Source of the DNA: Ruminococcus sp.
GTDB taxonomy: Bacteria > Bacillota > Clostridia > Oscillospirales > Acutalibacteraceae
Assembly (NCBI GenBank): GCA_024403825.1
Contig: JAKSRB010000001.1
Coordinates: 10,124 to 74,123, forward strand
Direction: 5' to 3'
DNA: 64,000 nt
Shown: in pieces, positions 31,232 through 53,441 of the stretch
Layout: every line of letters begins with the position of its first letter
Position numbering within the stretch: the stretch's first letter is position 1
Program-made: the position numbers and the translations under genes
The notes under the pieces: generated by a model
Database searches by the model: none
Seen by the model: the letters and a program-made list of their open reading frames with translations, nothing else
What the model was told of the DNA's origin: nothing

Positions 31232-34200
31232 ATGAGAACTACAAACAAAATAGTTTCCGCTATTCTTGCTGTATGTATGCTCGGCTCAACAAGTGCAATG
31301 ACAAGCTTTGCTGCAAATAATAGTTCTGAACCTGTATCAGGTGATAGAGCACTTGATACAAATTATTCAGCAGCTTGTCAGCAGCTTGATGATACCTATG
31401 GATATAACGGAAATGATCTTGGTGCTACATACACCAAGGAAAAAACAACATTTAAGGTATGGTCACCAAATGCTACTAAGGTAGTGCTTAACCTGTATGC
31501 AACTGGTTCTGATGAAGAGGATGGAGCAGAGAAGCTTGGAAATTATGATATGACCAAGAATGATGCAACAGGTGTATGGAGTGTAGAAGTTAAGCAGGAT
31601 TTAAAGAATGTTTATTACACATATTCTGTAACAGCTGTTCCTACAACAGGCGGAGCTGCTGTAACAAAGGAAACTCAGGATGTTTATTCTGTTGCAACTG
31701 GTGTAAATGGTAATCGTTCAATGGTCTGCGACCTTGATTCAACAGACCCTCAGGGCTGGGAAAATGATAAGCACATTTTGCTTAACCATAGCACAGAGTC
31801 AAGCGTATGGGAAATCCATGTAAAGGACTTTTCATATGATGAGGCTTCTGGTGTAAGCGAAGCTAACAGAGGTAAATATCTTGCATTCACAGAAACAGGC
31901 ACAACTCTCAACGGTGAAGAGGGCGGAGTTTCAACAGGTATTGATTATCTCAAAAATCTTGGAATTACAACAGTTCAGATAAATCCTTTCTATGATTTCC
32001 AGTCAGTAGATGAAGCTGGCGATGATGCTCAGTTCAACTGGGGTTATGACCCACAGAACTATAATGTTCCTGAAGGCTCATTCTCTACAAACCCTTATGA
32101 CGGTAATGTCAGAATTAAGGAATGTAAAGAAATGATTCAGGCACTTCACAATGCTGGAATTTCAGTTGTAATGGATGTTGTTTACAACCATACATATTCA
32201 ACAGATTCATGCTTCCAGAATACTGTACCAAACTATTACTACAGAATGGATGCTAATAGTAATTTTACAAATGGTTCAGGTTGTGGTAATGAAACTGCTA
32301 CAGAAAGACTTATGTTTAGAAATTATATTATCCAGTCATGCTTGTATTGGGTAAATGAATATCATGTTGACGGCTTCCGTTTTGACCTTATGGGTATTAT
32401 GGATGTTGAAACAATGAACCTCGTAAGAGATGCACTTGATACAGTTGATACAAGAATCACAACCTGGGGCGAAGGCTGGTCAGGCGGTGATTCAGTTCAT
32501 CCAAAGAATACTTGTGCAGGTACAACATTCTATCCTGCATTACAGGCAAATGCTTCAAAATTAAGCGACAGAATTGCATTCTTTAATGACGGTATCAGAG
32601 ATGGTATCAAGGGTAGTGCAATGGGCATTACAAATAAGGGCTTTGTTCAGGGATTTGCTACACTTGCAGGTGCTGTAGTATGCGGTATCAGAGCAAATAC
32701 AGTAAGCAGATATAACTGGAAATCATCTGCACCTACACAGACAGTAACTTATGATGCATGTCACGATAATGCTACACTTTATGACCAGATAATTGGTTCA
32801 ACAAGATTAGCAGCTTACGGTGAGCGTAATGCTGAGGCTGTAAAGATGAATAAGCTTGCCGCTGCAATCCTTTATACATCACAGGGTATTAACTTCACAC
32901 TTGCAGGTGAAGAAATGTGCCGTAGTAAAGATGGTGACACAAACAGCTATAAGTCAGCAGCTACTCTCAATATGATTAAGTGGCAGAATATTGTTGATTA
33001 TGCTGATGTAGTTTCTTATTACAAGGGACTTAGCGAAATCAGAAAGAATTTCTCAACATTTACTGTTGCTGATACATCATGTAAGAATAATTATGTTATG
33101 AATAATGCAGGTAATGCAGTTGGCACTAACATTGCTTACACAGTAACTAATGATGTTGAGGGCGAATGGAACAAGCTTGCTGTACTTTTCAACGCTGACG
33201 AAAATGAAGCTACAATTAAGTTAAAGGATACAGCAGTAACAGAAGACACAGAATGGGTAATTGTTGCTAATGCTGAAACTGCTGGTGTTGAAAGCCTTGG
33301 CGAAGTTAAGGGCAACGAGATTACTGTTCCTGCAAAAACTGCTTATATTCTTGTTGAGAAAAACAGCTTTAATAATACAGCTATCGACTCTAACACAGGT
33401 AAAGTAAAAGTTAATTATGTTTATGCAAACAACAAAACTGAGCTTACAGATTCTGTAATCCTCAAGGGCAATGTTGGTTCTGTATATCAGACAACAAAGA
33501 GTGCTGCTATTCCTGATACCTATGTACTTTCAAGCGTTGCAGGCAATGCAAAGGGTACATATTCAAAAGATACTCAGGAAGTAACATACTTCTACAAGGA
33601 TTATATTCCTGAATCAGTTAAGAATGCAGACTTTAACAATGACGGTATTGTTAATATATCTGATATTACTGCAATGCAGCAGCAGATTATTGGTTTAATT
33701 CAGTTTACAGATGAACAGCTTGCAAGATTTGACCTTAACTATGACGGCTGTAATGATGTAAATGATATTACAATGCTTCAGAAATATCTTGTTGAAATTC
33801 CTGTATCAACAGGTACAGTAGTAACAAATTACTACTATACAGATGACCAGGGTAACCTTAAAAATCTTAAAGAGTCTGTAAAGGTTACAGGCAGAGTTGG
33901 TTCTGATTTTAAAACAGAAGGTTTCCAGGTTGTAGGCTACAGCCTTGACCAGTCAAAGCTTCCTGAGAAAACTGAGGGTAAGATTCCTTATGGTGGAGTA
34001 TTAGAAGTTAATTACTACTATGTAAAGATTTCTCCGGAAATTAACCTCCACTTTATGCATAATTCATCTGCAACATGGAACCCAAGTATCTGGGTATGGG
34101 GTTCTGATACAAGCGGAAATGATACCTATAACTTCACACATTCAGGTACATGGCCTGGCGATGTAATTACTGATGAAGATGGCGATGGTTGGTATGACTA

Positions 34201-34417
34201 TACCTTTACCTATAAGGGTTCAGGTACATACAATGTAATCATTTCTCAGGACAGTGCATATCAGACTTGTGACTATAAGGGTGCTGCTTATAATGAAATG
34301 TGGGTAGTAATTGATGATTCAAACCTTTCATCAAAGACATATCTTACATTCTACCTTGATAACCCTGTTACAAATCCAAATGCACCTATTGCTGACAGAG
34401 TATATCCTGTAGTCTGA
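31232..34417 (+). CDS. pulA: Secreted type I pullulanase with MucBP-like domains, dockerin and C-terminal CBM26 (amylosome-type)
   Basis: Signal peptide, FNWGYDPQNY, FRFDLMG / WGEGW / CHDN, duplicated dockerin loops DFNNDGIVNISD and DLNYDGCNDVND, and CBM26-like W..P..W.W...WPG...GWY. Confidence 0.93.
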   Translation: MRTTNKIVSAILAVCMLGSTSAMTSFAANNSSEPVSGDRALDTNYSAACQQLDDTYGYNGNDLGATYTKEKTTFKVWSPNATKVVLNLYATGSDEEDGAEKLGNYDMTKNDATGVWSVEVKQDLKNVYYTYSVTAVPTTGGAAVTKETQDVYSVATGVNGNRSMVCDLDSTDPQGWENDKHILLNHSTESSVWEIHVKDFSYDEASGVSEANRGKYLAFTETGTTLNGEEGGVSTGIDYLKNLGITTVQINPFYDFQSVDEAGDDAQFNWGYDPQNYNVPEGSFSTNPYDGNVRIKECKEMIQALHNAGISVVMDVVYNHTYSTDSCFQNTVPNYYYRMDANSNFTNGSGCGNETATERLMFRNYIIQSCLYWVNEYHVDGFRFDLMGIMDVETMNLVRDALDTVDTRITTWGEGWSGGDSVHPKNTCAGTTFYPALQANASKLSDRIAFFNDGIRDGIKGSAMGITNKGFVQGFATLAGAVVCGIRANTVSRYNWKSSAPTQTVTYDACHDNATLYDQIIGSTRLAAYGERNAEAVKMNKLAAAILYTSQGINFTLAGEEMCRSKDGDTNSYKSAATLNMIKWQNIVDYADVVSYYKGLSEIRKNFSTFTVADTSCKNNYVMNNAGNAVGTNIAYTVTNDVEGEWNKLAVLFNADENEATIKLKDTAVTEDTEWVIVANAETAGVESLGEVKGNEITVPAKTAYILVEKNSFNNTAIDSNTGKVKVNYVYANNKTELTDSVILKGNVGSVYQTTKSAAIPDTYVLSSVAGNAKGTYSKDTQEVTYFYKDYIPESVKNADFNNDGIVNISDITAMQQQIIGLIQFTDEQLARFDLNYDGCNDVNDITMLQKYLVEIPVSTGTVVTNYYYTDDQGNLKNLKESVKVTGRVGSDFKTEGFQVVGYSLDQSKLPEKTEGKIPYGGVLEVNYYYVKISPEINLHFMHNSSATWNPSIWVWGSDTSGNDTYNFTHSGTWPGDVITDEDGDGWYDYTFTYKGSGTYNVIISQDSAYQTCDYKGAAYNEMWVVIDDSNLSSKTYLTFYLDNPVTNPNAPIADRVYPVV

Positions 34418-45154: not shown

Positions 45155-46213
45155 TTAATTTGTTGTAATATTTCCGAAAATTCCAAGTGAATATAAAGTA
45201 GTAACAAAAAATATACTTAACGATATTAATACACCGAAAGTGGAAAAACATTCAATTATTTTTTCCTTTAATGAAAATTCAGAAATTATCTGATAATTAG
45301 TTCCAGACTTATTATCCATTTTGAAAAAATACTTATAATTATTACTTAGATATATAAATGAAATGATTCCCAGTAGGCAAAATACTATAACTACAATAAT
45401 ATATACAATGTTTAATATTTTGTCATTTACAATATTGCTTGTATTGAGAATATCAATCATAACAGCATAGAAATTATTAATAAAGTGAATTGTGATTGAT
45501 GGAAGTAACGAGTTTGTTTTGCAGTCTATATATGCGAAAATCAGACCTAATATAAATGCAAATGGTATCTGAGAAATATTGCCATGCATTGCTCCGAAAA
45601 GAATCGCAGAGGTAATTATTGCAAAGACATCTCCGTATTTTCTTAATGTTCCCATTACCACTCCTCTGAAAGCAAATTCTTCGGCAAAGGCAGGAACAAT
45701 GGCTGTTGATATTATATAAAGTATGTTGCCAAATAATGTTGGAGCAGAGTTTTCAAAACTAATTTGATTTTCAAGTCCAAATAGCGAAAAGTTGTTGCTT
45801 ACAATTTCTGATGCATAATTTGCAATCATTGCAGCTGCCATTCCTATTGCGATAATAGGAAAAAATAAATCTGCTTTTACCTTATGTACAGGTATAGTTT
45901 CAAAAATATTGTTTCCTGAAAACAAGAAATAAAATAATCCGGGAATAAATGCGGATAATGTGCTTACAAATATAGTCAGCAAAAACATTGGTACTGTATT
46001 GGAGCTTGATAGGAGTGAGGAATCTCCAGTAACAGCAAGCAGGATGATTTCTATGATAATAGCACTTACTATCATAAATAAGTTATAGCTAAGCACAAAA
46101 AATCCTAAACCGTTTGATGTTTTTCTAAGTTTTTTCCGTTCTAATTGTTTTATGTTATTTTTCAGTATTTCGTCTGAATTGACATAATTACTGTAATTTG
46201 GTGTATTATTCAA
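45155..46213 (-). CDS. CPBP/Abi (CAAX-type) intramembrane metalloprotease
   Basis: EEFAFRG, FGAMH and HFINN motifs, many TM segments. TTG 46213 after GGGGAG. Confidence 0.9.
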   Translation of the reverse strand: MNNTPNYSNYVNSDEILKNNIKQLERKKLRKTSNGLGFFVLSYNLFMIVSAIIIEIILLAVTGDSSLLSSSNTVPMFLLTIFVSTLSAFIPGLFYFLFSGNNIFETIPVHKVKADLFFPIIAIGMAAAMIANYASEIVSNNFSLFGLENQISFENSAPTLFGNILYIISTAIVPAFAEEFAFRGVVMGTLRKYGDVFAIITSAILFGAMHGNISQIPFAFILGLIFAYIDCKTNSLLPSITIHFINNFYAVMIDILNTSNIVNDKILNIVYIIVVIVFCLLGIISFIYLSNNYKYFFKMDNKSGTNYQIISEFSLKEKIIECFSTFGVLISLSIFFVTTLYSLGIFGNITTN

Positions 46214-46393
46214 ATTTAATCTCCCCAAAAAATGTTAATGTAATAATCTTTATAATATCATATATATAATTCTTTTTCAAGAAATATATCAGAGTTGTTA
46301 TACTTAAATTACAGTTGCTCAATTCTATTGACAAAAACGGATTTATTGTGATAACATATATTTATTATATAGATATAGAAAGGATGTTCAGTC

Positions 46394-47134
46394 GTGATAA
46401 CTGCTATGCTTTTTGCCGGTGGAAGCGGTGTGAGAATGAAGGATTCTGATATTCCAAAGCAATTTCTTGAAATCGGCGGTAAACCGATTATTATTCATAC
46501 TATTGAACATTTTGCAAATCATCCATTGGTAGATGCCATTGTGGTTGCTTGCAAAGCAGATTGGATTGAATATCTTAATAATTTAATAAAAGAATTTAAT
46601 GTTCCAAAGTTTCGTGCTGTAGTTCCAGGAGGTAAAACTGGATTTGACTCAATTCATAATGGTGTAGTTGCGGTTGCTGGATTTTCCAAAAATCCTGATG
46701 ATATTATACTTATTTGTGACGGTGTTCGTCCTATGCTGTCTGAAAAACTAATCACAAACTGTATTAATGATACTATTAAATATAAATCGGCTGTTCCTGT
46801 TACTCCGAGCATTGATTCATTGCTTTATAGCGAGGACGGTATATCTTGTGGAAAAAGCTATCAAAGAAGTACAATGTATATTACTCAAGCACCTCAGGGT
46901 TATACTATGGAGCGGATTTTATGGGCTCATAACGAGGCTTATAAAAGAGGAATTACTAATCCTGTTTCTTCAAGTGAGCTTTTTATTGAGTTGGGTGAAA
47001 AGGTGCATATTTTCCTTGGTGAAAGATTTAATATTAAAGTCACCACTTCGGAGGATTTAACTACGCTCAGAGCACAGTTTTATTATAATAATTACAAACA
47101 ATTTGCTAAGGAAGAATTAAAATATGGATTGTAA
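46394..47134 (+). CDS. IspD/TarI-family cytidylyltransferase (copy 1)
   Basis: FAGGSGVRM...PKQF, CDGVRP, QAPQ and NIKVTTSEDL motifs. Confidence 0.9.
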   Translation: MITAMLFAGGSGVRMKDSDIPKQFLEIGGKPIIIHTIEHFANHPLVDAIVVACKADWIEYLNNLIKEFNVPKFRAVVPGGKTGFDSIHNGVVAVAGFSKNPDDIILICDGVRPMLSEKLITNCINDTIKYKSAVPVTPSIDSLLYSEDGISCGKSYQRSTMYITQAPQGYTMERILWAHNEAYKRGITNPVSSSELFIELGEKVHIFLGERFNIKVTTSEDLTTLRAQFYYNNYKQFAKEELKYGL

Positions 47135-48203
47135 GGTTAAAGCTCTTATAAAAAATTCTGTATATCAGGATATTTTGGAAATAGTATCCTCTGATATAGA
47201 TTGGAAAAAATTTTCAGGCAAAACTATTTTAATTACAGGTGCAGGCGGTTTTATCGGATATTACTTATCACTTGCATTTCTTTTGAGAAATGATTTATAT
47301 TCTGAGAATATTAAGGTAATTGCCCTTGTAAGAAATAAAAGCAAGGCTCAGAATAAATTCGGCTATTTACTAAATCGTGATGATTTGGTTCTTTGTGTAC
47401 AAGATGTAAATGAAAGTATTAGTTGCCAGAAAGCTGATTATGTTATACATATGGCAAGTCAGGCAAGTAATATTCAGTTTGAAAATGACCCTGTAGGTAC
47501 TATTAATGCAAATCTCTCTGGAACTGCAAATGTTTTGGATTTTGCCAAAAAATCCTGTAGTGAGGCTGTTTTAATTGTATCGAGTCTTAAGGTTTATGGA
47601 ACTGTTTTCAAGGGTGATGAAAAAATTAAAGAGGAAGATTTGGGATATATAGATTTTACATCATATAAAAATTGCTATGCAATGGGCAAGAGAGCTTCTG
47701 AAACTCTTGCGGCAAGCTATGTAAAGCAATACGGTATGAATATTAAAATCGCAAGGCCAAGCTATATTTATGGTGCAAGCAGTCTTGATGATGACAGAGT
47801 GTGGGCTCAGTTTATTGCTAATGTTGTAAAAAACGAGGATATACTTCTTAAAAGCAACGGAGTCGCAAATCGTTCCTTCTGTTATGTTTCAGATACAGCA
47901 TCGGCTTTGCTTTATATTATGCTTAATGGTGTAGATTCTGTGCCGTATAATATTTCAAATGAAAAGTCAGATACTACTATCAGAAATTTTGCTAAGACTG
48001 CCTGTGAGGTATTTCCTGAGCGAAATATCAAGCTGTCATTTGCTAATAAGGAAGATGAATTTTACGATACTTCTCAGAAATCTGTGCTTGCTCCAACGGC
48101 AGAAATTCTTGATAATTCTAAAATTCTGGCTCTTGGCTGGATTCCAAAGGTTGATTTAGCTGAGGGAATAAAGCGTTCTGTAAAAATTCTTGAGGAGAAA
48201 TAA
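47124..48203 (+). CDS. Extended SDR NAD-dependent epimerase/dehydratase/reductase
   Basis: ITGAGGFIG, SSLKVYG, YAMGK (YxxxK) and RSFCYVSD motifs, coupled to the cytidylyltransferase. Confidence 0.88.
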   Translation: MDCKVKALIKNSVYQDILEIVSSDIDWKKFSGKTILITGAGGFIGYYLSLAFLLRNDLYSENIKVIALVRNKSKAQNKFGYLLNRDDLVLCVQDVNESISCQKADYVIHMASQASNIQFENDPVGTINANLSGTANVLDFAKKSCSEAVLIVSSLKVYGTVFKGDEKIKEEDLGYIDFTSYKNCYAMGKRASETLAASYVKQYGMNIKIARPSYIYGASSLDDDRVWAQFIANVVKNEDILLKSNGVANRSFCYVSDTASALLYIMLNGVDSVPYNISNEKSDTTIRNFAKTACEVFPERNIKLSFANKEDEFYDTSQKSVLAPTAEILDNSKILALGWIPKVDLAEGIKRSVKILEEK

Positions 48204-48208
48204 TGCTT

Positions 48209-48229
48209 AGGAGCCTTTTGGCTCCTTTT
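48209..48229 (+). terminator. Terminator after SDR gene
   Basis: AGGAGCC-tttt-GGCTCCT followed by TTT. Confidence 0.7.
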
Positions 48230-48322
48230 ACATTTTACATTCATTAATTCTGTATTATTGTCTTAAATTTTATCTTATTTTGTTTTTATTTCTATCTTAT
48301 CATACAATATGTTATACCTCTA

Positions 48323-48352
48323 TTGACAAAAAAGCTGGAAATGTGGTATTAT
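48323..48352 (+). promoter_or_regulatory. sigmaA-type promoter for the second polyol unit
   Basis: TTGACA-18-TATTAT with extended TG. Confidence 0.55.
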
Positions 48353-48424
48353 AAATTAGTTTATAGATGTATAATTTTGTAAATTGAATTTTAGTTATAT
48401 TTATTTTTCTACGGAGGAAGAGTA

Positions 48425-49120
48425 ATGAATACTGCAATTATACTTGCCGGCGGTGTTGGAAGCAGAATGGGTGCTGACAGACCTAAGCAGTTTCTTATGG
48501 TTGAGGATAAACCTATAATTTCCTATTGTCTTAAAATATTTCAGAATCATAGTGAAATTGATAATATTGTTATAGTTGTCAGCGAGGAATGGCAGAGCTT
48601 TGTTGAAGAAAATGCTAAAGAATGTGGTATCACAAAGATATGTGGCTATGCTCCAGCAGGTAAAACAAGACAACATTCGATTTATAACGGTCTTAAATGC
48701 ATTGATAAAAATGCAGGAGATACTGATGTTGTTATAGTTCATGATGCGGCTCGTCCTCTTGTTTCTGACCAGATTATTTCTGATTGTATTAAGGGTGCTA
48801 CTGAATTTGACGGTGCAATGCCTGTTATTTCAGTCAAGGATACTGTATATCAGAGTGCTGACGGAAAGAAAATAGGCTGTCTTTTAAAACGCTCTGAGCT
48901 TTTTGCAGGACAAGCTCCTGAAAGCTTTAACTTTAAGAAATATTATAAAATCCATAACGAAGTTTCTGATGAGGAAATTGGTCTTACAGCAGGTAGTAGT
49001 GAGATTGCTTACAGACATGGTATGGAAATTACAATGGTAAAAGGCAGCGAACGCAATTTAAAAATTACTACTCAGGAGGATCTCAAAACATTTGAGACGA
49101 TTTTGAAAGGTGTGAATTAA
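48425..49120 (+). CDS. IspD/TarI-family cytidylyltransferase (copy 2)
   Basis: ILAGGVGSRM...PKQF, VHDAARP, QAPE and NLKITTQEDL motifs. Confidence 0.92.
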   Translation: MNTAIILAGGVGSRMGADRPKQFLMVEDKPIISYCLKIFQNHSEIDNIVIVVSEEWQSFVEENAKECGITKICGYAPAGKTRQHSIYNGLKCIDKNAGDTDVVIVHDAARPLVSDQIISDCIKGATEFDGAMPVISVKDTVYQSADGKKIGCLLKRSELFAGQAPESFNFKKYYKIHNEVSDEEIGLTAGSSEIAYRHGMEITMVKGSERNLKITTQEDLKTFETILKGVN

Positions 49121-49121
49121 T

Positions 49122-50174
49122 ATGGATACTATGAAAGCAAGAGTTTTAAAGGCTGTTGGAAATCTTGAATATTGCGATTATCCAATGCCTGAGGTTGCAG
49201 AGGATGAGGTTCTGTTTCGTGTAAGAGCTTGTGGAATCTGCGGTTCAGATATTCCAAGAATTTTTGTTAATGGTACTTATCATTTTCCAACAATTCCGGG
49301 ACACGAATTTTCTGGTGAGGTTGTTGCTGCTGGCAGCAGTAAATATGAAAATCTTGTTGGAATGAGAGCTACAGTATTTCCTCTTATTCCTTGCAAGACC
49401 TGTGAAAGCTGTAATAAGGGCAGCTATGAAATGTGCAAAAGCTATGATTATCTTGGCTCAAGAAGTGACGGTGCGTTTGCAGAATATGTAAGAGTTCCTG
49501 TATGGAATTTAGTTCCAATTCCTGATAATCTCTCATTTGAAGAGGCTGCAATGACCGAGCCTTGTGCTGTTGGTTTGCACGCATTGAGAAGAGCACAGAT
49601 TGAGGTTGGCGATACTGTAGCAATTTTCGGACCTGGTACAATAGGTATGCTTGTTGCACAGTGGGCAAGAGCTTGGGGTGCAAAGGTGCTTTTAATTGGT
49701 ACTGATATAAATAACTGGGATTTCATTGAAAGCCTTGGTTTTTATGATTACTGCAACTCCTCACACGAGGATGCTATAGAGTGGGTAAAAAAGATGACAA
49801 ACGGTATTGGTGCTGATATTACAATTGAGGCAGTTGGTGCAAATATTACCGCTTGCAACTGTCTTGAGGCTGTAGCAGCAGGCGGAAAGGTTTTATTTAT
49901 CGGAAATCCGCATAGTGACTTTACTTTCCCACAAAATAATTACTGGCAGATTTTAAGAAAACAGCTTACACTTTATGGTACATGGAATTCAAGCTACAGT
50001 GATACACATAAGAGTGACTGGAATCTTGTTGTTGATGCTATGGCAACAGGTAAAATTGATGTTAAGAAGTTGATTACTCATAAATTCGACCTTGAGCATA
50101 TGGACGAGGGTCTTGAAATTATGAGAGATAATAAAGAGTTTTTTGCAAAAATTATGGTAGTCAACGAGGACTGA
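49122..50174 (+). CDS. Zinc-dependent sugar-alcohol(-phosphate) dehydrogenase (galactitol-1-P dehydrogenase/TarJ-like MDR)
   Basis: GICGSD, GHE, structural Zn CKTCESC...C, EPCAV, GPGTIG and GTWNS motifs. Confidence 0.88.
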   Translation: MDTMKARVLKAVGNLEYCDYPMPEVAEDEVLFRVRACGICGSDIPRIFVNGTYHFPTIPGHEFSGEVVAAGSSKYENLVGMRATVFPLIPCKTCESCNKGSYEMCKSYDYLGSRSDGAFAEYVRVPVWNLVPIPDNLSFEEAAMTEPCAVGLHALRRAQIEVGDTVAIFGPGTIGMLVAQWARAWGAKVLLIGTDINNWDFIESLGFYDYCNSSHEDAIEWVKKMTNGIGADITIEAVGANITACNCLEAVAAGGKVLFIGNPHSDFTFPQNNYWQILRKQLTLYGTWNSSYSDTHKSDWNLVVDAMATGKIDVKKLITHKFDLEHMDEGLEIMRDNKEFFAKIMVVNED

Positions 50175-50188
50175 GAGGTTATTGTATA

Positions 50189-50854
50189 ATGAATGGCTTG
50201 CTTTCACCGTCACTAATGTGTGCTGATATGTTAAACTTAGAGTCTGAGCTAAAGACTTTAGATAATCTTGGCGTAGAATATATACATCTTGATTTTATGG
50301 ATAATAAGTTTGTACCAAACATAACTTTGGATACTAATTTGATTAAGTCCGTAAAGTCAGTTTTAAAGGATATGAAGAGAGATATTCATATAATGGCATT
50401 CGAGCCTCAGCAATATTTTGATAAAATGGAGATTTGTGAGGGTGATATAGTATCTGTTCATTATGAGGCTTGTGAGGATTTACATTCGGTTATAGGTGCT
50501 ATTCGTGATAAGGGTGCATCTCCGTTTGTTGCAATAAGTCCTGATACATCAGTTGATGTTCTTGAAGATTATCTTGCTGAAATTGATGGTGTGCTTGTTA
50601 TGACGGTTTATCCCGGATTTGCAGGTCAGCCTATTGTTGAGGGCAGTTTTGAAAAAATTCAGGCTGTCAGAAAGCTGATTGACGAAAAAGCTCCTGAGCT
50701 GTTGCTTGAGGTTGACGGTCATGTAAGTTGGGATTTGTGCAGTAAAATGCGTGAATGTGGTGCAGATATTTTTGTTGCTGGTTCTTCATCTGTATATTCC
50801 GGTGAAGATACAATGGAAAACTCTGTTAATAGAATGTATGAATTAATAAAATAA
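50189..50854 (+). CDS. Ribulose-phosphate 3-epimerase family protein, AlsE-like
   Basis: SPSLMC, HLDFMDNKFVPN, DIHIM, VMTVYPGFAGQ and EVDG motifs. Confidence 0.85.
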   Translation: MNGLLSPSLMCADMLNLESELKTLDNLGVEYIHLDFMDNKFVPNITLDTNLIKSVKSVLKDMKRDIHIMAFEPQQYFDKMEICEGDIVSVHYEACEDLHSVIGAIRDKGASPFVAISPDTSVDVLEDYLAEIDGVLVMTVYPGFAGQPIVEGSFEKIQAVRKLIDEKAPELLLEVDGHVSWDLCSKMRECGADIFVAGSSSVYSGEDTMENSVNRMYELIK

Positions 50855-50884
50855 AATTATATCTAATATTTTAAATTTAGCGTT

Positions 50885-50926
50885 AAAGATAACCTTGAAT
50901 GATATTTATCGTACAAGGTTATCTTT
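50885..50926 (+). other. Long intergenic hairpin between epimerase and TagF-like gene
   Basis: AAAGATAACCTTG ... CAAGGTTATCTTT 13-bp stem plus inner ATGAT/ATCGT. Confidence 0.65.
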
Positions 50927-50952
50927 GAATATATCTATGTGGGGTGTAATGT

Positions 50953-52725
50953 TTGGAATATAAAATTCAAGTCAAATCATTGAGAATTAAGGACCGAAGT
51001 ATGTACCTTAATATTATGGGTGAGGTTGCTGACGAAAGTATTAATACTCATTTTCTTTCAAAGCCTAAAATAGTATTACATTTTTTTGATGGAACTGAGG
51101 ACAGAAGAATTCCATTTATTCTTACAAATGTTACATATGTTGACGGAAAATGCTATTTTTCAGGTAAATACAGATACAGACTTGATTTGCTTTTCTGGAA
51201 AACAAGAAAAGACTGTCTGCCGTTTGATATGTATCTGAATTTTAGTTTTGCAGATTATTACGAAGAAAAAATCCCTGTTGACTTAACTCCTGAGGAGTTT
51301 GAAACAGATGATAAATGCTATGGTTACATACTTGAGGGCAATCATTTCAGATTTTTGCCTAACAAGAAGAAAATTTACCATACAAGATTTTCAAGAACCT
51401 TTGTTGGTGTTGTAGATTTTATCGTAAGAGCGATTGAATATATTATTGCTATTCTGATGATACCGTTATTTATGATTGACGGTTTGCTGAGATTTACAGA
51501 AGTAAAAAGGTTCCCTGCAAAATTCAATGACCCAAATCCGATTAAAAGATACATAGCATTTGTATTCTCACGCTTTTCAAGTGTAGCTACATATAAAGTA
51601 TCTATCTGGACAGTTAAGCGATACATATTCAGAAAATGTTATAATTTCTACAAGCTTAGAAAAATTCAGGATAACAAAATTACTTTTATTTCACTAAGAA
51701 GAGATGATTTGTCAGGAAACTTTGCTTTTGTATATGACAAGCTTAAGGATGACAAGAATCTTGATATTAATTTTATTCTTAATGAACACACTATTGCTTA
51801 TATGTCTTTTAAGGAAATTAAGGCATTTACAAAGGCTTGTGCAACAAGTAAGACCGTAATTCTTGATGAATTTACACCAATGATTCATTATATAGATTTA
51901 AGACCTGAAACAAAGCTTATTCAGCTTTGGCATGCCTGCGGTGCATTCAAAACCTTTGGCTTTACAAGACTTTCAAAGCCTCATGGCTCACCACAGACAA
52001 CACGCAACCACAGAAGCTATGATTATGTTACAGTAAGCTCAACCTACTGCAAAAAATGTCATTCTGAGGGATTTGGTATTCCTACCGATAATGTTGTAGC
52101 AACAGGTATTCCAAGAACCGATGTATTCTTTGATGAAGAGTATAAAAAGCAGGTTAGAGAAAAATTTTACACTGATTATCCTCACTTCAGAAACAAGAAG
52201 ATTGTTATGTTTGCTCCTACATTCAGAGGAATGGTAAAGGAAACTGCATTTTATCCAACTGAGATGTTTGATTTGGAAACAGTATGCAAAAAGCTTCCTG
52301 ATGACTATGTGTTTATAATCAAGCATCACCCATTTGTAAAAGATGAACAGCCAATTCCTGAGAAGTATAAGAACAGAATTATTGACTTGTCTGAAAACAG
52401 CGAGCTTAATGATTTGCTCTTCGTTACAGATGTTATAATTACCGACTATTCATCACTTGTATTCGAGGCATCATTACTTAATATTCCAATGGTATTCTAT
52501 GTATTTGACCTCGAAAAATATATTAATGAGCGTGATTTCTACTTTGATTTCAAGCTTTATGCACCAGGTAAAATTGTGTATTCTCAGGAAACACTTATTG
52601 ATTGTATTGCAAAGCGTGATTTCTGTGAGGAAAGAATTGCTCCTTTTGCAGATATGTTCTTTGATTATCGTGACGGAAAGTCAACTGACCGAGTTGTAAA
52701 ACTTATTTACGATTCTTTAAAATAA
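50953..52725 (+). CDS. CDP-glycerol/ribitol:poly(polyol-phosphate) phosphotransferase, TagB/TagF/TarL family
   Basis: IQLWHACGAFKTFG, GIPRTD, FAPTFRG, KHHP and ITDYSS motifs, plus a ~200-aa N-terminal extension with a hydrophobic segment. Confidence 0.92.
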   Translation: MEYKIQVKSLRIKDRSMYLNIMGEVADESINTHFLSKPKIVLHFFDGTEDRRIPFILTNVTYVDGKCYFSGKYRYRLDLLFWKTRKDCLPFDMYLNFSFADYYEEKIPVDLTPEEFETDDKCYGYILEGNHFRFLPNKKKIYHTRFSRTFVGVVDFIVRAIEYIIAILMIPLFMIDGLLRFTEVKRFPAKFNDPNPIKRYIAFVFSRFSSVATYKVSIWTVKRYIFRKCYNFYKLRKIQDNKITFISLRRDDLSGNFAFVYDKLKDDKNLDINFILNEHTIAYMSFKEIKAFTKACATSKTVILDEFTPMIHYIDLRPETKLIQLWHACGAFKTFGFTRLSKPHGSPQTTRNHRSYDYVTVSSTYCKKCHSEGFGIPTDNVVATGIPRTDVFFDEEYKKQVREKFYTDYPHFRNKKIVMFAPTFRGMVKETAFYPTEMFDLETVCKKLPDDYVFIIKHHPFVKDEQPIPEKYKNRIIDLSENSELNDLLFVTDVIITDYSSLVFEASLLNIPMVFYVFDLEKYINERDFYFDFKLYAPGKIVYSQETLIDCIAKRDFCEERIAPFADMFFDYRDGKSTDRVVKLIYDSLK

Positions 52726-52771: not shown

Positions 52772-52897
52772 AAGCAAAGCAGAAATGCTTTCACCTGTGG
52801 GGTGTCGTCTGCACGGGTCAATACCTTAATTTATTATTTCTTTATTTTGTGTATTGCTATGCGGACGGATGTATTTCTGTCCGCATTATTTATTTCT
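52772..52897 (+). ncRNA. L20 leader (ribosomal protein autoregulatory element) with terminator hairpin
   Basis: AAGCAGAA..GCTTTCACCTG..CGGG resembles the Firmicute L20 leader. Hairpin ATGCGGACGGA/TCTGTCCGCAT (52859-52886) with U-rich tail, upstream of infC-rpmI-rplT. Confidence 0.75.
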
Positions 52898-52922
52898 ATT
52901 GGTACTTTGGAGGTGCTTAACC

Positions 52923-53441
52923 ATCGGCAAGAAAGATATTCAGATCAACGAAGAAATTCGTGATAAAGAACTAAGAGTAATTGGACCTGACGGTCAACAG
53001 CTTGGAATAATGTCTTCAAAAGAGGCACTTAATCTTGCAGAACAGAAAAATCTCGATTTGGTTAAAATTGCTCCGCAGAGCAATCCGCCTGTTTGTAAGA
53101 TTATGGACTATGGTAAATATCGTTTTGAACAGGCTAAAAGAGAGAAAGAAGCAAGAAAAAATCAACATATTGTTGATATTAAAGAGGTAAGATTATCACT
53201 TAATATTGACACTCATGATTTTAATACTAAGCTTAATAATGCTCTTAAATTCATCAAACATGGCGACAAGGTCAAGGTTTCTATCAGATTCAGAGGTCGT
53301 GAAATGGGTCATCCTGAGATAGGTCTGGATACTATGAAGCGTTTTGCCGAGGCTTGCAGTGAAACAGCAGTTATTGAAAAACCAGCTAAGCTTGAAGGAA
53401 GAAATATGCTGATGTTTCTTGCACCAAAGTCAAGTAAGTAA
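52923..53441 (+). CDS. infC: Translation initiation factor IF-3 (non-canonical ATC start)
   Basis: INEEIR, LDLVKIAP..PPVCKIMDYGKY and KVSIRFRGRE motifs. GGAGGTG RBS is 7 nt before ATC at 52923. Confidence 0.95.
   Translation: MGKKDIQINEEIRDKELRVIGPDGQQLGIMSSKEALNLAEQKNLDLVKIAPQSNPPVCKIMDYGKYRFEQAKREKEARKNQHIVDIKEVRLSLNIDTHDFNTKLNNALKFIKHGDKVKVSIRFRGREMGHPEIGLDTMKRFAEACSETAVIEKPAKLEGRNMLMFLAPKSSK

What the first reader, a model, noticed from the sequence alone, without database searches (positions are those of the whole stretch)
46394..52725. Two parallel CDP-polyol pathways feeding one TagF-family polymerase: possible novel teichoic-acid-like polymer
Seen: unit 1 is a cytidylyltransferase plus an extended SDR, then a terminator. 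Unit 2 has its own promoter and carries a second cytidylyltransferase, a Zn-MDR polyol-phosphate dehydrogenase, an epimerase with the AlsE-type SPSLMC N-terminus, and a TagF/TarL-like transferase. Known: TarI+TarJ make CDP-ribitol. In pneumococcal capsules, IspD-like + SDR pairs (AbpA/AbpB, Mnp1/Mnp2) make CDP-arabinitol or CDP-mannitol via CDP-ketoses. E. coli AlsE interconverts allulose-6-P and fructose-6-P. Inference: unit 2 could route fructose-6-P to allulose-6-P to a rare hexitol-phosphate (allitol/altritol), or Ru5P/Xu5P to arabitol-phosphate. The cell would then make two different CDP-polyols for a mixed or switchable wall polymer.
Basis: partly seen in the sequence, partly recalled or inferred. 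Interest (0 to 1): 0.62.

Follow-up and report, generated by a model that had tools for sequence, protein, structure and literature searches.

The report
Two CDP-alditol units, one TarL polymerase
A gut Ruminococcus bromii-group bacterium carries, at a variable cell-wall locus, two separate gene sets for activated sugar-alcohol phosphates beside one ribitol-type teichoic acid polymerase; every part belongs to a known enzyme family, but the combination and one of the routes are unusual.

Summary
The six genes are real, intact and at the stated coordinates. The same six-gene order recurs in independent assemblies and in other species of the R. bromii group.

- **Unit 1:** an IspD/TarI-family cytidylyltransferase plus an extended SDR. 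The SDR's best solved relative is the C. jejuni CDP-6-D-fructose reductase HS5.17.
- **Unit 2:** a TarI-like cytidylyltransferase, a Zn-MDR, an Rpe-family epimerase and a polymerase. The polymerase is closest to S. aureus TarL and carries its ribitol-binding GAF loop.
- **The MDR is not a TarJ orthologue.** It is 21-24% identical to TarJ and 33-44% identical to GatD-type and pentitol-phosphate dehydrogenases.
- **The epimerase is neither canonical Rpe nor AlsE.** It sits in a separate non-canonical branch.
- **Unit 2 is a conserved four-gene module** that also occurs inside a classical teichoic acid locus with TagGH.
- **The site is variable.** Relatives carry unit 1 plus a LicD transferase, unit 2 alone, or both units.

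My reading is that unit 2 makes a CDP-pentitol, probably CDP-ribitol, for a TarL-made chain. Unit 1 makes a second CDP-alditol whose user is not in this locus.

The hexitol idea is disfavoured but not excluded. "Both feed one polymerase" is unproven.

The parts
45155..46228 (-). CPBP/Rce1-like intramembrane protease. It marks the conserved left border of the variable site.
   Evidence: PF02517, E 3e-21. Its orthologue sits in the same position in type A, B and AB loci.
46328..46357 (+). Promoter-like site of unit 1 (TTGACA, 18 nt, TG-n-TAACAT).
   Evidence: 10 of 12 matches with an extended -10 TG. It shares the 'TATTGACAAAAA' architecture with the unit 2 promoter. Function is inferred.
46394..47134 (+). 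CT1: IspD/TarI-family cytidylyltransferase of unit 1. The GTG start is homologous to the ATG used in relatives.
   Evidence: PF01128, E 2e-37. NF001183 scores 167.5 against a cut-off of 166. It falls below the ispD equivalog cut-offs. It is 84-86% identical to CT1 of type A loci. It is 31-33% identical to TarI, HS5.18 and CT2 alike.
47124..48203 (+). Extended SDR of unit 1, a putative NADPH-dependent CDP-ketose reductase.
   Evidence: The best solved relative is 8V4G/8V4H, C. jejuni HS5.17 CDP-6-D-fructose reductase (E 2e-40). The next best hit is at 6e-30 (paper PMC10918830). YxxxK, Arg56, Lys60, Arg208 and Arg233 are conserved. The polyol contacts Glu140, Gln196 and Arg164 are changed to Lys, Tyr and Lys.
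48209..48226 (+). Terminator-like hairpin (AGGAGCC-TTTT-GGCTCCT) plus T-run, just after the SDR stop.
   Evidence: It is specific to this species and is not aligned in L030 or L031. Function is inferred.
48323..48352 (+). Promoter-like site of unit 2 (TTGACA, 18 nt, TGgTATTAT).
   Evidence: 11 of 12 matches with an extended -10. It is conserved in sequence and position in type B and AB loci. Nucleotide homology to type B loci starts at 48266-48321.
48425..49120 (+). CT2: TarI-like cytidylyltransferase of unit 2.
   Evidence: NF001183 (D-ribitol-5-phosphate cytidylyltransferase subfamily) scores 181.1 against a cut-off of 166. The best solved relatives are the TarI structures 6XHP and 4JIS. It is 61% identical to the CT of L041 and 50% identical to a P. 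distasonis capsule-locus CT.
49122..50174 (+). Zn-dependent MDR polyol-phosphate dehydrogenase or ketose-phosphate reductase. It fills the TarJ position but is not a TarJ orthologue.
   Evidence: ADH_N plus ADH_zinc_N. The best model is GatD, at 229 bits against a cut-off of 550. The best PDB hit is GatD 4A2C. It is 21-24% identical to TarJ of S. epidermidis and Listeria. It is 44% identical to an E. raffinosus catabolic MDR, 36% to a Listeria PTS-locus MDR and 33% to E. coli GatD.
50189..50854 (+). Non-canonical Rpe-family ketose-phosphate 3-epimerase.
   Evidence: PF00834, E 1e-54. It is below the rpe equivalog cut-off (200.6 against 212.6) and below the AlsE cut-off (165.8 against 271). It is 30-31% identical to both E. 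coli Rpe and AlsE. In the tree it lies in the S-x-S-x-M-C / GFAGQ group, outside both the canonical Rpe clade and the AlsE clade.
50953..52725 (+). TarL-like polyol-phosphate polymerase (TagF family).
   Evidence: The best solved relative is S. aureus TarL 8VA1 (E 2e-80), against TagF at 5e-26. Its donor loop WHACGAFK contains the ribitol 'GAF' motif. The equivalents of His300, His433, Pro395 and Glu497 are conserved.
52854..53441 (+). infC (IF-3). It marks the conserved right border of the variable site.
   Evidence: TIGR00168, E 8e-68. It holds the same position in all locus types.

Best explanation
This is one allele of a variable wall-polymer locus of teichoic acid type in the Ruminococcus bromii group. 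The locus lies between a CPBP protease gene and infC.

**Unit 2 (CT2, MDR, RPE, TarL-like)** is a self-contained module.
1. The non-canonical Rpe-family epimerase supplies a ketose phosphate, most likely by interconverting xylulose-5-P and ribulose-5-P.
2. The GatD/pentitol-phosphate-dehydrogenase-type MDR reduces that ketose phosphate to an alditol phosphate, most likely ribitol-5-P.
3. CT2 activates the alditol phosphate with CTP.
4. The TarL orthologue polymerises pentitol phosphate onto a lipid-linked primer made by genes elsewhere in the genome.

Unit 2 is therefore a non-orthologous equivalent of TarI-TarJ-TarL.

**Unit 1 (CT1, SDR)** works the other way round, as in HS5.18/HS5.17, Mnp1/Mnp2 and AbpA/AbpB.
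1. The cytidylyltransferase first makes a CDP-ketose.
2. The extended SDR reduces it with NADPH to a second CDP-alditol.

In sister genomes a LicD-family phosphotransferase encoded immediately downstream uses that product. Here the gene is absent, so the user is either an unlinked transferase or, less likely, the TarL-like enzyme.

**Shown:** gene content, family placement, motif conservation, locus variability and purifying selection.
**Inferred:** every substrate and product.
For: **Polymerase**
- TarL 8VA1 is by far the best solved relative: E 2e-80, against TagF at 5e-26.
- The TarL paper defines the GAF loop as the ribitol-size determinant and PL as the glycerol determinant.
- The window has WHACGAFK. 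S. epidermidis TarL has WHAVGAFK, Listeria has WHAAGAFK, and TagB-like enzymes have GAL.

**Unit 2 as a module**
- L041 carries IspD (61% identical), MDR (58%), Rpe (48%) and TarL-like (52%, full length, same loop).
- Two further TagF-family genes and a TagG/TagH-like ABC pair follow them there.
- Type B loci carry unit 2 alone at the same site.

**CT2**
- It passes the ribitol-5-P cytidylyltransferase subfamily cut-off.

**MDR plus Rpe pairing**
- MDR and Rpe paralogues are adjacent in a Listeria galactitol-class PTS locus (L037).
- An Rpe fused to an Fe-ADH_2 domain exists among the relatives.

**Unit 1**
- HS5.17 is the best solved relative, and the NADP-binding and diphosphate-binding residues are conserved.
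- The CT1 and SDR genes overlap.
- The pair is followed by a LicD fusion gene in nine relatives: L001-L008 are inferred from synteny and ORF length and confirmed by Pfam for L001, L002 and L004; L010 and L011 are confirmed by Pfam.
- The pair stands alone in Lachnospiraceae.

**Both units functional**
- Non-synonymous divergence is far below saturated synonymous divergence for all six genes in A, B and AB contexts.
- Within the species, pN/pS is 0-0.5.
- A bovine gut metatranscriptome holds small contigs on the SDR, the MDR and the polymerase.
Against: - **No enzyme was assayed,** so all substrates are inferred.
- **The MDR is not TarJ** (21-24% identity). Its nearest relative, at 44%, sits in an E. 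raffinosus locus with a true AlsE-clade epimerase and a mannose-class PTS. That context hints at hexose chemistry.
- **The epimerase has hexose-linked relatives.** It shares AlsE-like motifs, and its wider branch holds ROK-kinase fusions.
- **A dedicated epimerase is not obviously needed** if the substrate is a central pentose phosphate. A P. distasonis capsule cassette also pairs such an epimerase with a CT and an extended SDR.
- **Three of the residues that contact glucitol in HS5.17 differ in the SDR,** so its product is unknown.
- **The polymerase falls short of full TarL membership.** It scores 326 bits against the TarL equivalog cut-off of 1000, and its first 213 residues match nothing solved.
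- **The rest of the pathway was not seen.** No primase, TagGH, TagO or LCP gene is in the 64 kb window, and the genome could not be searched.
Confidence: 0.55

Rival explanations
1. One reading: both CDP-alditols are donors for the single TarL-like polymerase, which builds a mixed or alternating poly(alditol phosphate).
For: The two-unit (AB) form, with no LicD, is kept in at least three species-level lineages with all six genes under purifying selection. No LicD lies within the 64 kb window. If unit 1 made another pentitol, such as arabinitol by an AbpA/B-like route, it could fit a pentitol-sized pocket.
Against: The donor loop and flanking residues of the polymerase are identical in loci with and without unit 1. 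In type A loci unit 1 is coupled to LicD instead. The CT1-SDR pair also occurs with no neighbouring transferase at all, so an unlinked user is normal for it.
Confidence: 0.22
2. Unit 2 makes a polyol other than ribitol. It could be another pentitol (arabinitol-P or xylitol-P, through APDH/XPDH-like chemistry). It could also be a rare hexitol made through allulose-6-P (allitol or altritol).
For: The MDR groups with GatD and the pentitol-phosphate dehydrogenases, not with TarJ. The epimerase lies in the non-canonical branch that also contains AlsE and ROK-kinase fusions, and it shares SPSLMC, GFAGQ and the extra residue in the beta-8 loop with AlsE. The nearest MDR relative is encoded beside a true AlsE-clade enzyme.
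Against: The GAF donor loop is the same as in proven ribitol-phosphate polymerases. CT2 passes the ribitol-5-P cytidylyltransferase subfamily cut-off. The epimerase is outside the AlsE clade: its marker residues read D/Y/L/Y against S/Y/T/D for AlsE, and it fails the AlsE model. A hexitol would need a larger pocket than TarL's.
Confidence: 0.2
3. Redundancy: both units make CDP-ribitol by different orders of reaction (reduce then activate, or activate then reduce). The two-unit form is a recombination by-product of the other two forms, with no chemical consequence.
For: Both cytidylyltransferases pass the same ribitol-5-P CT subfamily cut-off. The promoter region is duplicated before each unit, which suggests cassette joining. 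The nucleotide homology breakpoints are clean.
Against: Redundant genes should decay, yet the two-unit form persists across lineages whose synonymous sites are saturated, with dN/dS well below 0.2 wherever dS was measurable. CT1 is only 33% identical to CT2.
Confidence: 0.13
4. The epimerase is simply the cell's only (housekeeping) ribulose-phosphate 3-epimerase and happens to lie in this operon.
For: It passes the rpe subfamily model NF004076, at 190.5 against a cut-off of 165. All four catalytic His/Asp residues are present. No other Rpe-family gene was found among the window ORFs scanned.
Against: It lacks the canonical APSILS / GFGGQ / VDGG signature and falls outside the canonical clade. 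Type A relatives, including R. bromii ATCC 27255, lack it at this site, so the clade must obtain Rpe activity elsewhere or do without it. The same epimerase travels with the module in L041, and a related one travels in a P. distasonis capsule locus.
Confidence: 0.1

Closest known systems
TarI-TarJ-TarL (CDP-ribitol synthesis and ribitol-phosphate polymerisation in S. aureus, S. epidermidis tarIJLM plasmids and Listeria)
   Same: The gene order is cytidylyltransferase, dehydrogenase, polymerase. CT2 is TarI-like. The polymerase is the closest solved relative of TarL and has the catalytic histidines and the GAF ribitol loop.
   Different: The dehydrogenase is not a TarJ orthologue (21-24% identity). 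An extra Rpe-family epimerase is inserted between the dehydrogenase and the polymerase. The N-terminal domain of the polymerase is unrelated to any solved TarL/TarK N-terminal domain.
HS5.18/HS5.17 of C. jejuni HS:5 (CDP-6-D-glucitol), and the analogous Mnp1/Mnp2 and AbpA/AbpB of pneumococcal capsules
   Same: An IspD-family cytidylyltransferase is paired with an extended SDR. HS5.17 is the SDR's best solved relative, with a conserved N-terminal helix, YxxxK, and NADP- and diphosphate-binding residues.
   Different: Identity is only about 32%. Three polyol-contact residues differ. CT1 is no closer to HS5.18 (32%) than to TarI, whereas Mnp1 is 45% identical to HS5.18 according to the paper. Here the pair lies in a Gram-positive wall-polymer site rather than a capsule locus.
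E. coli AlsE (D-allulose-6-phosphate 3-epimerase) and canonical Rpe
   Same: It has the same fold family and the same catalytic His/Asp set. It shares SPSLMC, GFAGQ and a one-residue-longer beta-8 loop with AlsE.
   Different: It is 30-31% identical to each. It fails both equivalog cut-offs. It has its own marker residues and a separate, well-supported small clade with P0259 and P0260.
GatD and the pentitol-phosphate dehydrogenases (arabitol-phosphate and xylitol-phosphate dehydrogenases; Listeria PTS-locus MDRs)
   Same: It belongs to the same MDR branch (33-44% identity). It also sits next to an Rpe paralogue, as in the Listeria locus L037.
   Different: Those enzymes are catabolic and linked to PTS transporters. 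Here the enzyme sits between a cytidylyltransferase and a polymerase, so it would run in the reductive, biosynthetic direction.
LicD-family phosphotransferases (which transfer phospho-alcohols from CDP donors)
   Same: In type A sister loci a LicD-domain protein directly follows the CT1-SDR pair, which implies transfer of a phospho-alditol.
   Different: No LicD is present in this window. The sister-locus LicD is fused to an N-terminal SDR-like domain of unknown role.

Membership tests
TarL (teichoic acid ribitol-phosphate polymerase, TagF-like) | GT-B Glyphos_transf catalytic domain closest to TarL | tested here: met
   PF04464, E 5e-82. 8VA1 TarL scores E 2e-80, against TagF at 5e-26.
TarL (teichoic acid ribitol-phosphate polymerase, TagF-like) | Two catalytic histidines (TarL H300, H433) and the ribitol-binding GAF loop (residues 299-308) | tested here: met
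   WHACGAFK and HPF are aligned to the TarL positions. P395 and E497 are also conserved.
TarL (teichoic acid ribitol-phosphate polymerase, TagF-like) | Reaches the curated equivalog score | tested here: not met
   NF041713 scores 325.9 bits against a cut-off of 1000. The match covers the C-terminal domain only.
TarL (teichoic acid ribitol-phosphate polymerase, TagF-like) | Uses CDP-ribitol and makes long chains | not testable with these tools
   Needs an enzyme assay.
TarI (ribitol-5-phosphate cytidylyltransferase) | Reaches the curated subfamily score | tested here: met
   On NF001183 (cut-off 166), CT2 scores 181.1 and CT1 scores 167.5. Both are below the ispD equivalog cut-offs.
TarI (ribitol-5-phosphate cytidylyltransferase) | Substrate is ribitol-5-P | not testable with these tools
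   CT1, CT2, TarI and HS5.18 are all about 30-35% identical to one another, so sequence does not decide.
TarJ (ribulose-5-phosphate reductase) | Orthology to characterised TarJ | tested here: not met
   It is 24% identical to S. epidermidis TarJ and 21% to Listeria TarJ. It is 33-44% identical to GatD-type enzymes.
CDP-ketose reductases (HS5.17 / Mnp2 / AbpB type) | Extended SDR with an N-terminal helix, YxxxK, NADP-binding Arg/Lys and diphosphate-binding Arg, encoded beside an IspD-family CT | tested here: met
   Alignment to 8V4G was read against the residue roles given in the paper. The genes overlap.
CDP-ketose reductases (HS5.17 / Mnp2 / AbpB type) | Conserved polyol-contact residues, which would point to the same product | tested here: not met
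   The changes are Glu140 to Lys, Gln196 to Tyr and Arg164 to Lys. The product is therefore probably not glucitol.
CDP-ketose reductases (HS5.17 / Mnp2 / AbpB type) | Phylogenetic placement with AbpB or Mnp2 | not tested
   Their sequences were not obtainable with the tools at hand.
AlsE (D-allulose-6-phosphate 3-epimerase) | Curated equivalog score and clade membership | tested here: not met
   NF007266 scores 165.8 against a cut-off of 271. The protein lies outside the AlsE clade in the tree.
AlsE (D-allulose-6-phosphate 3-epimerase) | Clade-marker residues S52, Y134, T142, D147 (PMC12216980) | tested here: not met
   The window has D, Y, L and Y at these positions.
Canonical Rpe (housekeeping ribulose-phosphate 3-epimerase) | Equivalog score and the APSILS / GFGGQ / VDGG signature | tested here: not met
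   TIGR01163 scores 200.6 against a cut-off of 212.6. The signature reads SPSLMC / GFAGQ / VDGH, and the protein lies outside the canonical clade. It does pass the looser subfamily model NF004076.
Canonical Rpe (housekeeping ribulose-phosphate 3-epimerase) | It is the only Rpe-family gene of the genome | not testable with these tools

The most novel reading that the evidence does not exclude
The four-gene module (TarI-like CT, GatD-type MDR, non-canonical Rpe-family epimerase, TarL-like polymerase) makes a poly(alditol phosphate) whose alditol is not ribitol. The dedicated epimerase would create a ketose phosphate absent from central metabolism, for example allulose-6-P, and the MDR would reduce it. 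Combined with unit 1's second CDP-alditol, R. bromii-group bacteria would then carry wall polymers of a chemistry not yet described. The three locus forms would act as serotype-like variants in a keystone gut starch degrader.
Probability: 0.1. Interest if true: 0.8.

Novelty: new variant of a known kind. Interest (0 to 1): 0.45.

Why it matters
Ruminococcus bromii and its relatives are keystone degraders of resistant starch in human and animal guts. I found nothing in the searched literature on their wall polymers.

This locus shows three things about the group:
- It has a variable, cassette-like site for alditol-phosphate polymers, with three forms.
- A widespread module replaces TarJ with a GatD-type reductase plus a dedicated non-canonical epimerase.
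- A CDP-ketose-route enzyme pair, known so far from capsules, also sits in a Gram-positive wall-polymer site.

Such surface variation is likely to bear on phage and host-antibody recognition and on strain typing. The module also offers a concrete enzyme set for testing what the large non-canonical branch of the Rpe family does.

Tried and rejected
1. **Whole-genome check** for a second rpe, ispD, licD, tagB, tagO, tagGH or LCP. The scan's own notes held nothing for this genome.
2. **Rfam scan of the window.** No hit.
3. **Exact look-up of the 590-aa polymerase.** It is not on record, because gene callers use the 574-aa start.
4. **LicD remnant in the window.** None found; the best tblastn E-value was 0.32.
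5. **Reading polyol size from the 917-aa TagF-like proteins of type A loci.** Their donor loop is too divergent to map.
6. **Conserved palindrome ACACAATnTATTGTGT upstream of the -35 in relatives.** It is degenerate in the window, and such patterns are no more frequent than chance there.
7. **CT1 against HS5.18.** At 32% it is no closer than TarI, so this is uninformative.
8. **The Chan et al. 2008 AlsE structure paper.** It is not held.
9. **Literature on R. bromii teichoic acids or pentose metabolism.** Nothing relevant was found.
10. **'Unit 1 is a decaying remnant'.** Rejected because of purifying selection across lineages.
11. **'The window's two-unit form is a recent chimera'.** Not supported. 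The higher identity of unit 1 to type A loci and of unit 2 to type B loci simply follows the flank-gene tree. In that tree the other two-unit loci (L030, L031) branch outside, though with weak support.

Full report
**Observation.**
The stretch 46394-52725 holds six co-directional ORFs. The families are these.
- CT1 (46394-47134): IspD family.
- SDR (47124-48203): extended SDR, overlapping CT1 by 11 bases.
- CT2 (48425-49120): IspD family.
- MDR (49122-50174): zinc MDR.
- RPE (50189-50854): Ribul_P_3_epim.
- Polymerase (50953-52725): Glyphos_transf.

A hairpin with a T-run lies at 48209-48226, and a near-consensus extended -10 promoter lies at 48323-48352. Together they separate the two units.

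It is not an assembly artefact. Seven independent Logan contigs of the same species show the same order. Two further lineages (L030; L031/L032) carry the same six genes at the same site.

**Organism and setting.**
The relatives found with the SDR are Ruminococcus bromii ATCC 27255, Ruminococcoides intestinale and many Ruminococcus MAGs. The window also encodes dockerin- and MucBP-bearing pullulanase-type amylases typical of that group. A bovine gut metatranscriptome holds pieces of the locus.

**A variable site with three forms.**
The site lies between a CPBP protease gene with a cytidine deaminase-like gene on one side and infC-rpmI-rplT on the other. Relatives carry one of three forms.
- **Type A:** CT1, SDR, then a protein of about 620 aa with a weak SDR-like N-terminal half and a LicD domain. 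Sometimes a 917-aa TagF-like protein and an acyltransferase follow.
- **Type B:** CT2, MDR, RPE and polymerase only.
- **Type AB:** both units without LicD, as in the window.

Nucleotide homology to type A loci covers 46356-48203. Homology to type B loci begins at 48266-48321, which includes the promoter, and runs through infC. The promoter architecture is repeated before each unit.

A tree of flanking genes is star-like. The other AB loci branch outside the window plus the A and B loci, with weak support. The AB form may therefore be old, and the A and B forms may be derived from it. All six genes show non-synonymous divergence far below saturated synonymous divergence in every context. Within-species differences are mostly synonymous. 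Neither unit is a relic.

**Unit 2.**
*The polymerase.* Its best solved relative is S. aureus TarL (8VA1, E 2e-80). TagF scores 5e-26. The TarL cryo-EM paper assigns the catalytic roles to H300 and H433. It identifies a G303-A304-F305 loop as what enlarges the donor pocket for ribitol, whereas glycerol enzymes have Pro-Leu there. The window protein reads WHACGAFK, and it keeps the HPF histidine, P395 and E497. S. epidermidis TarL and the Listeria polymerase also have GAF, while TagB-like enzymes have GAL. The loop is identical in type B and AB loci.

*CT2.* It passes the ribitol-5-P cytidylyltransferase subfamily cut-off and not the ispD ones.

*The MDR.* It is not TarJ. I took genuine TarJ sequences from an S. 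epidermidis tarIJL plasmid and from Listeria, and the window MDR is only 21-24% identical to them. It is 44% identical to an E. raffinosus MDR, 36% to a Listeria PTS-locus MDR that lies next to an Rpe paralogue, and 33% to E. coli GatD.

*The epimerase.* It is 30-31% identical to both E. coli Rpe and E. coli AlsE, and it fails both equivalog cut-offs. I built a tree from 139 family representatives plus references.
- Canonical Rpe proteins (APSILS, GFGGQ, VDGG) form one group.
- The window enzyme lies in the diverse non-canonical group (S-x-S-x-M-C, GFAGQ, VDG-N/S/H).
- That group also contains the AlsE clade, a Listeria paralogue and a P. distasonis capsule-locus enzyme.
- It further contains ROK-kinase fusions and an Fe-ADH_2 fusion.
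- The window enzyme is not inside the AlsE clade. Its marker residues are D/Y/L/Y, against S/Y/T/D for AlsE and G/V/L/N for Rpe.

*A conserved module.* The epimerase's sister, P0259, sits in L041. That locus carries IspD (61% identical), MDR (58%), Rpe (48%) and a full-length TarL-like gene (52%, same loop). Two more TagF-family genes follow (WHSTGAFK and WHALGLLK), then a TagG/TagH-like ABC pair. Unit 2 is therefore a conserved four-gene module that belongs to classical teichoic acid-type loci.

*Most likely chemistry.* Xu5P and Ru5P are interconverted by the epimerase. The MDR reduces Ru5P to ribitol-5-P, CT2 activates it, and the TarL-like enzyme polymerises it. The pentitol size rests on the GAF loop. 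The choice of ribitol over arabinitol or xylitol is inference.

**Unit 1.**
The SDR's best solved relative is HS5.17 of C. jejuni HS:5 (8V4G/8V4H, E 2e-40; the next hit is 6e-30). HS5.17 reduces CDP-6-D-fructose to CDP-6-D-glucitol, after HS5.18 has made the CDP-ketose. The same logic holds for Mnp1/Mnp2.

Conserved residues are the N-terminal extension, YxxxK, the NADP 2'-phosphate binders Arg56 and Lys60, Arg208 and the diphosphate binder Arg233. The glucitol contacts Glu140 and Gln196, and Arg164, are Lys, Tyr and Lys. The family assignment is good, but the product is unlikely to be glucitol.

CT1 is about 32% identical to HS5.18, TarI and CT2 alike. Mnp1 is 45% identical to HS5.18. CT1 is therefore probably not a fructose-6-P enzyme, though that is only a weak hint.

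In type A loci and in L010 and L011 a LicD-domain protein follows the pair. In Lachnospiraceae the pair stands alone between an aminotransferase gene and yceG. The user of unit 1's product is thus normally a LicD-type transferase or an unlinked enzyme. There is no LicD in the window.

**Weighing the readings.**
- *The specific claim that both feed the single polymerase* has no positive evidence. It is weakened by the LicD coupling in sister loci and by the unchanged donor loop.
- *The hexitol proposal* is disfavoured by the TarL-type pocket and by the epimerase lying outside the AlsE clade. It is not excluded. The MDR's nearest relative sits beside a true AlsE-clade enzyme with a mannose-class PTS. 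The epimerase's wider branch includes hexokinase-type fusions. A Bacteroidales capsule cassette also couples such an epimerase with a cytidylyltransferase and an extended SDR, where supplying a central pentose phosphate would seem unnecessary.
- *An earlier scan note* on another genome (e1-3832585) describes TarI-like, Rpe-like, TagF-like and LicD genes without a TarJ. That fits the pattern, but I did not test it.

**Novelty.**
Every protein belongs to a known family, and the overall function, activated alditol phosphates for a wall polymer, is a known kind. Three things appear undescribed in what I could search.
- The TarJ-less module with a dedicated non-canonical epimerase.
- Its pairing at one site with a CDP-ketose-route unit.
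- The three-form variability of that site in the R. bromii group.

I rate the finding a new variant of a known kind, of moderate interest.

Noticed in passing
window 28276-31161 and 31232-34417: Two large pullulanase/amylase-type proteins carry CBM48 and MucBP domains. The second also has a type I dockerin. They are amylosome-style enzymes typical of the R. bromii group.
   Followed up: no
L001:9067-10962, L002:9098-10945, L004:9111-10979, L011:5288-7150: In type A sister loci the gene after CT1-SDR encodes a fusion of about 620 aa. Its N-terminal half gives a weak Epimerase/SDR match in two of the four copies and has no known role. Its C-terminal half is a LicD phosphotransferase domain.
   Followed up: partly
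L025:6123-6234, L028:6052-6237, L001 upstream of 7271: A palindrome, ACACAATnTATTGTGT, lies directly upstream of the -35 box of the locus promoter in several relatives and could be an operator. It is degenerate in the window (48300-48320).
   Followed up: partly
P0270, P0276, P0282, P0268 (representatives): Non-canonical Rpe-family domains occur fused to ROK-family sugar kinases and to an Fe-ADH_2 (glycerol-1-phosphate dehydrogenase-like) domain. These fusions hint at the substrates of this poorly characterised branch.
   Followed up: partly
L040:8001-12952 (Parabacteroides distasonis NZ_OY725754.1): A capsule-type locus carries an IspD/TarI-family CT (50% identical to CT2), an extended SDR (31% identical to the window SDR), a non-canonical Rpe and two TagF-family transferases. 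It looks like a hybrid of the window's two units.
   Followed up: partly
L036:752-9073 (Enterococcus raffinosus megaplasmid NZ_CP104765.1): A catabolic locus carries a LevR-like sigma-54 activator, a mannose-class PTS, the MDR most similar to the window's (44%), a SIS-domain protein, a classical SDR and a true AlsE-clade epimerase. Its substrate is unknown.
   Followed up: no
PLSDB record NZ_CP030101.1: This record is filed as a Listeria monocytogenes 'plasmid' but is 2.9 Mb long, so it is evidently a chromosome. That made Listeria reference genes reachable.
   Followed up: no
window 52859-52886: A strong hairpin (11 pairs) overlaps the first codons of the infC ORF as listed. The real infC start, or a leader structure, may differ from the listed TTG at 52854.
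   Followed up: no
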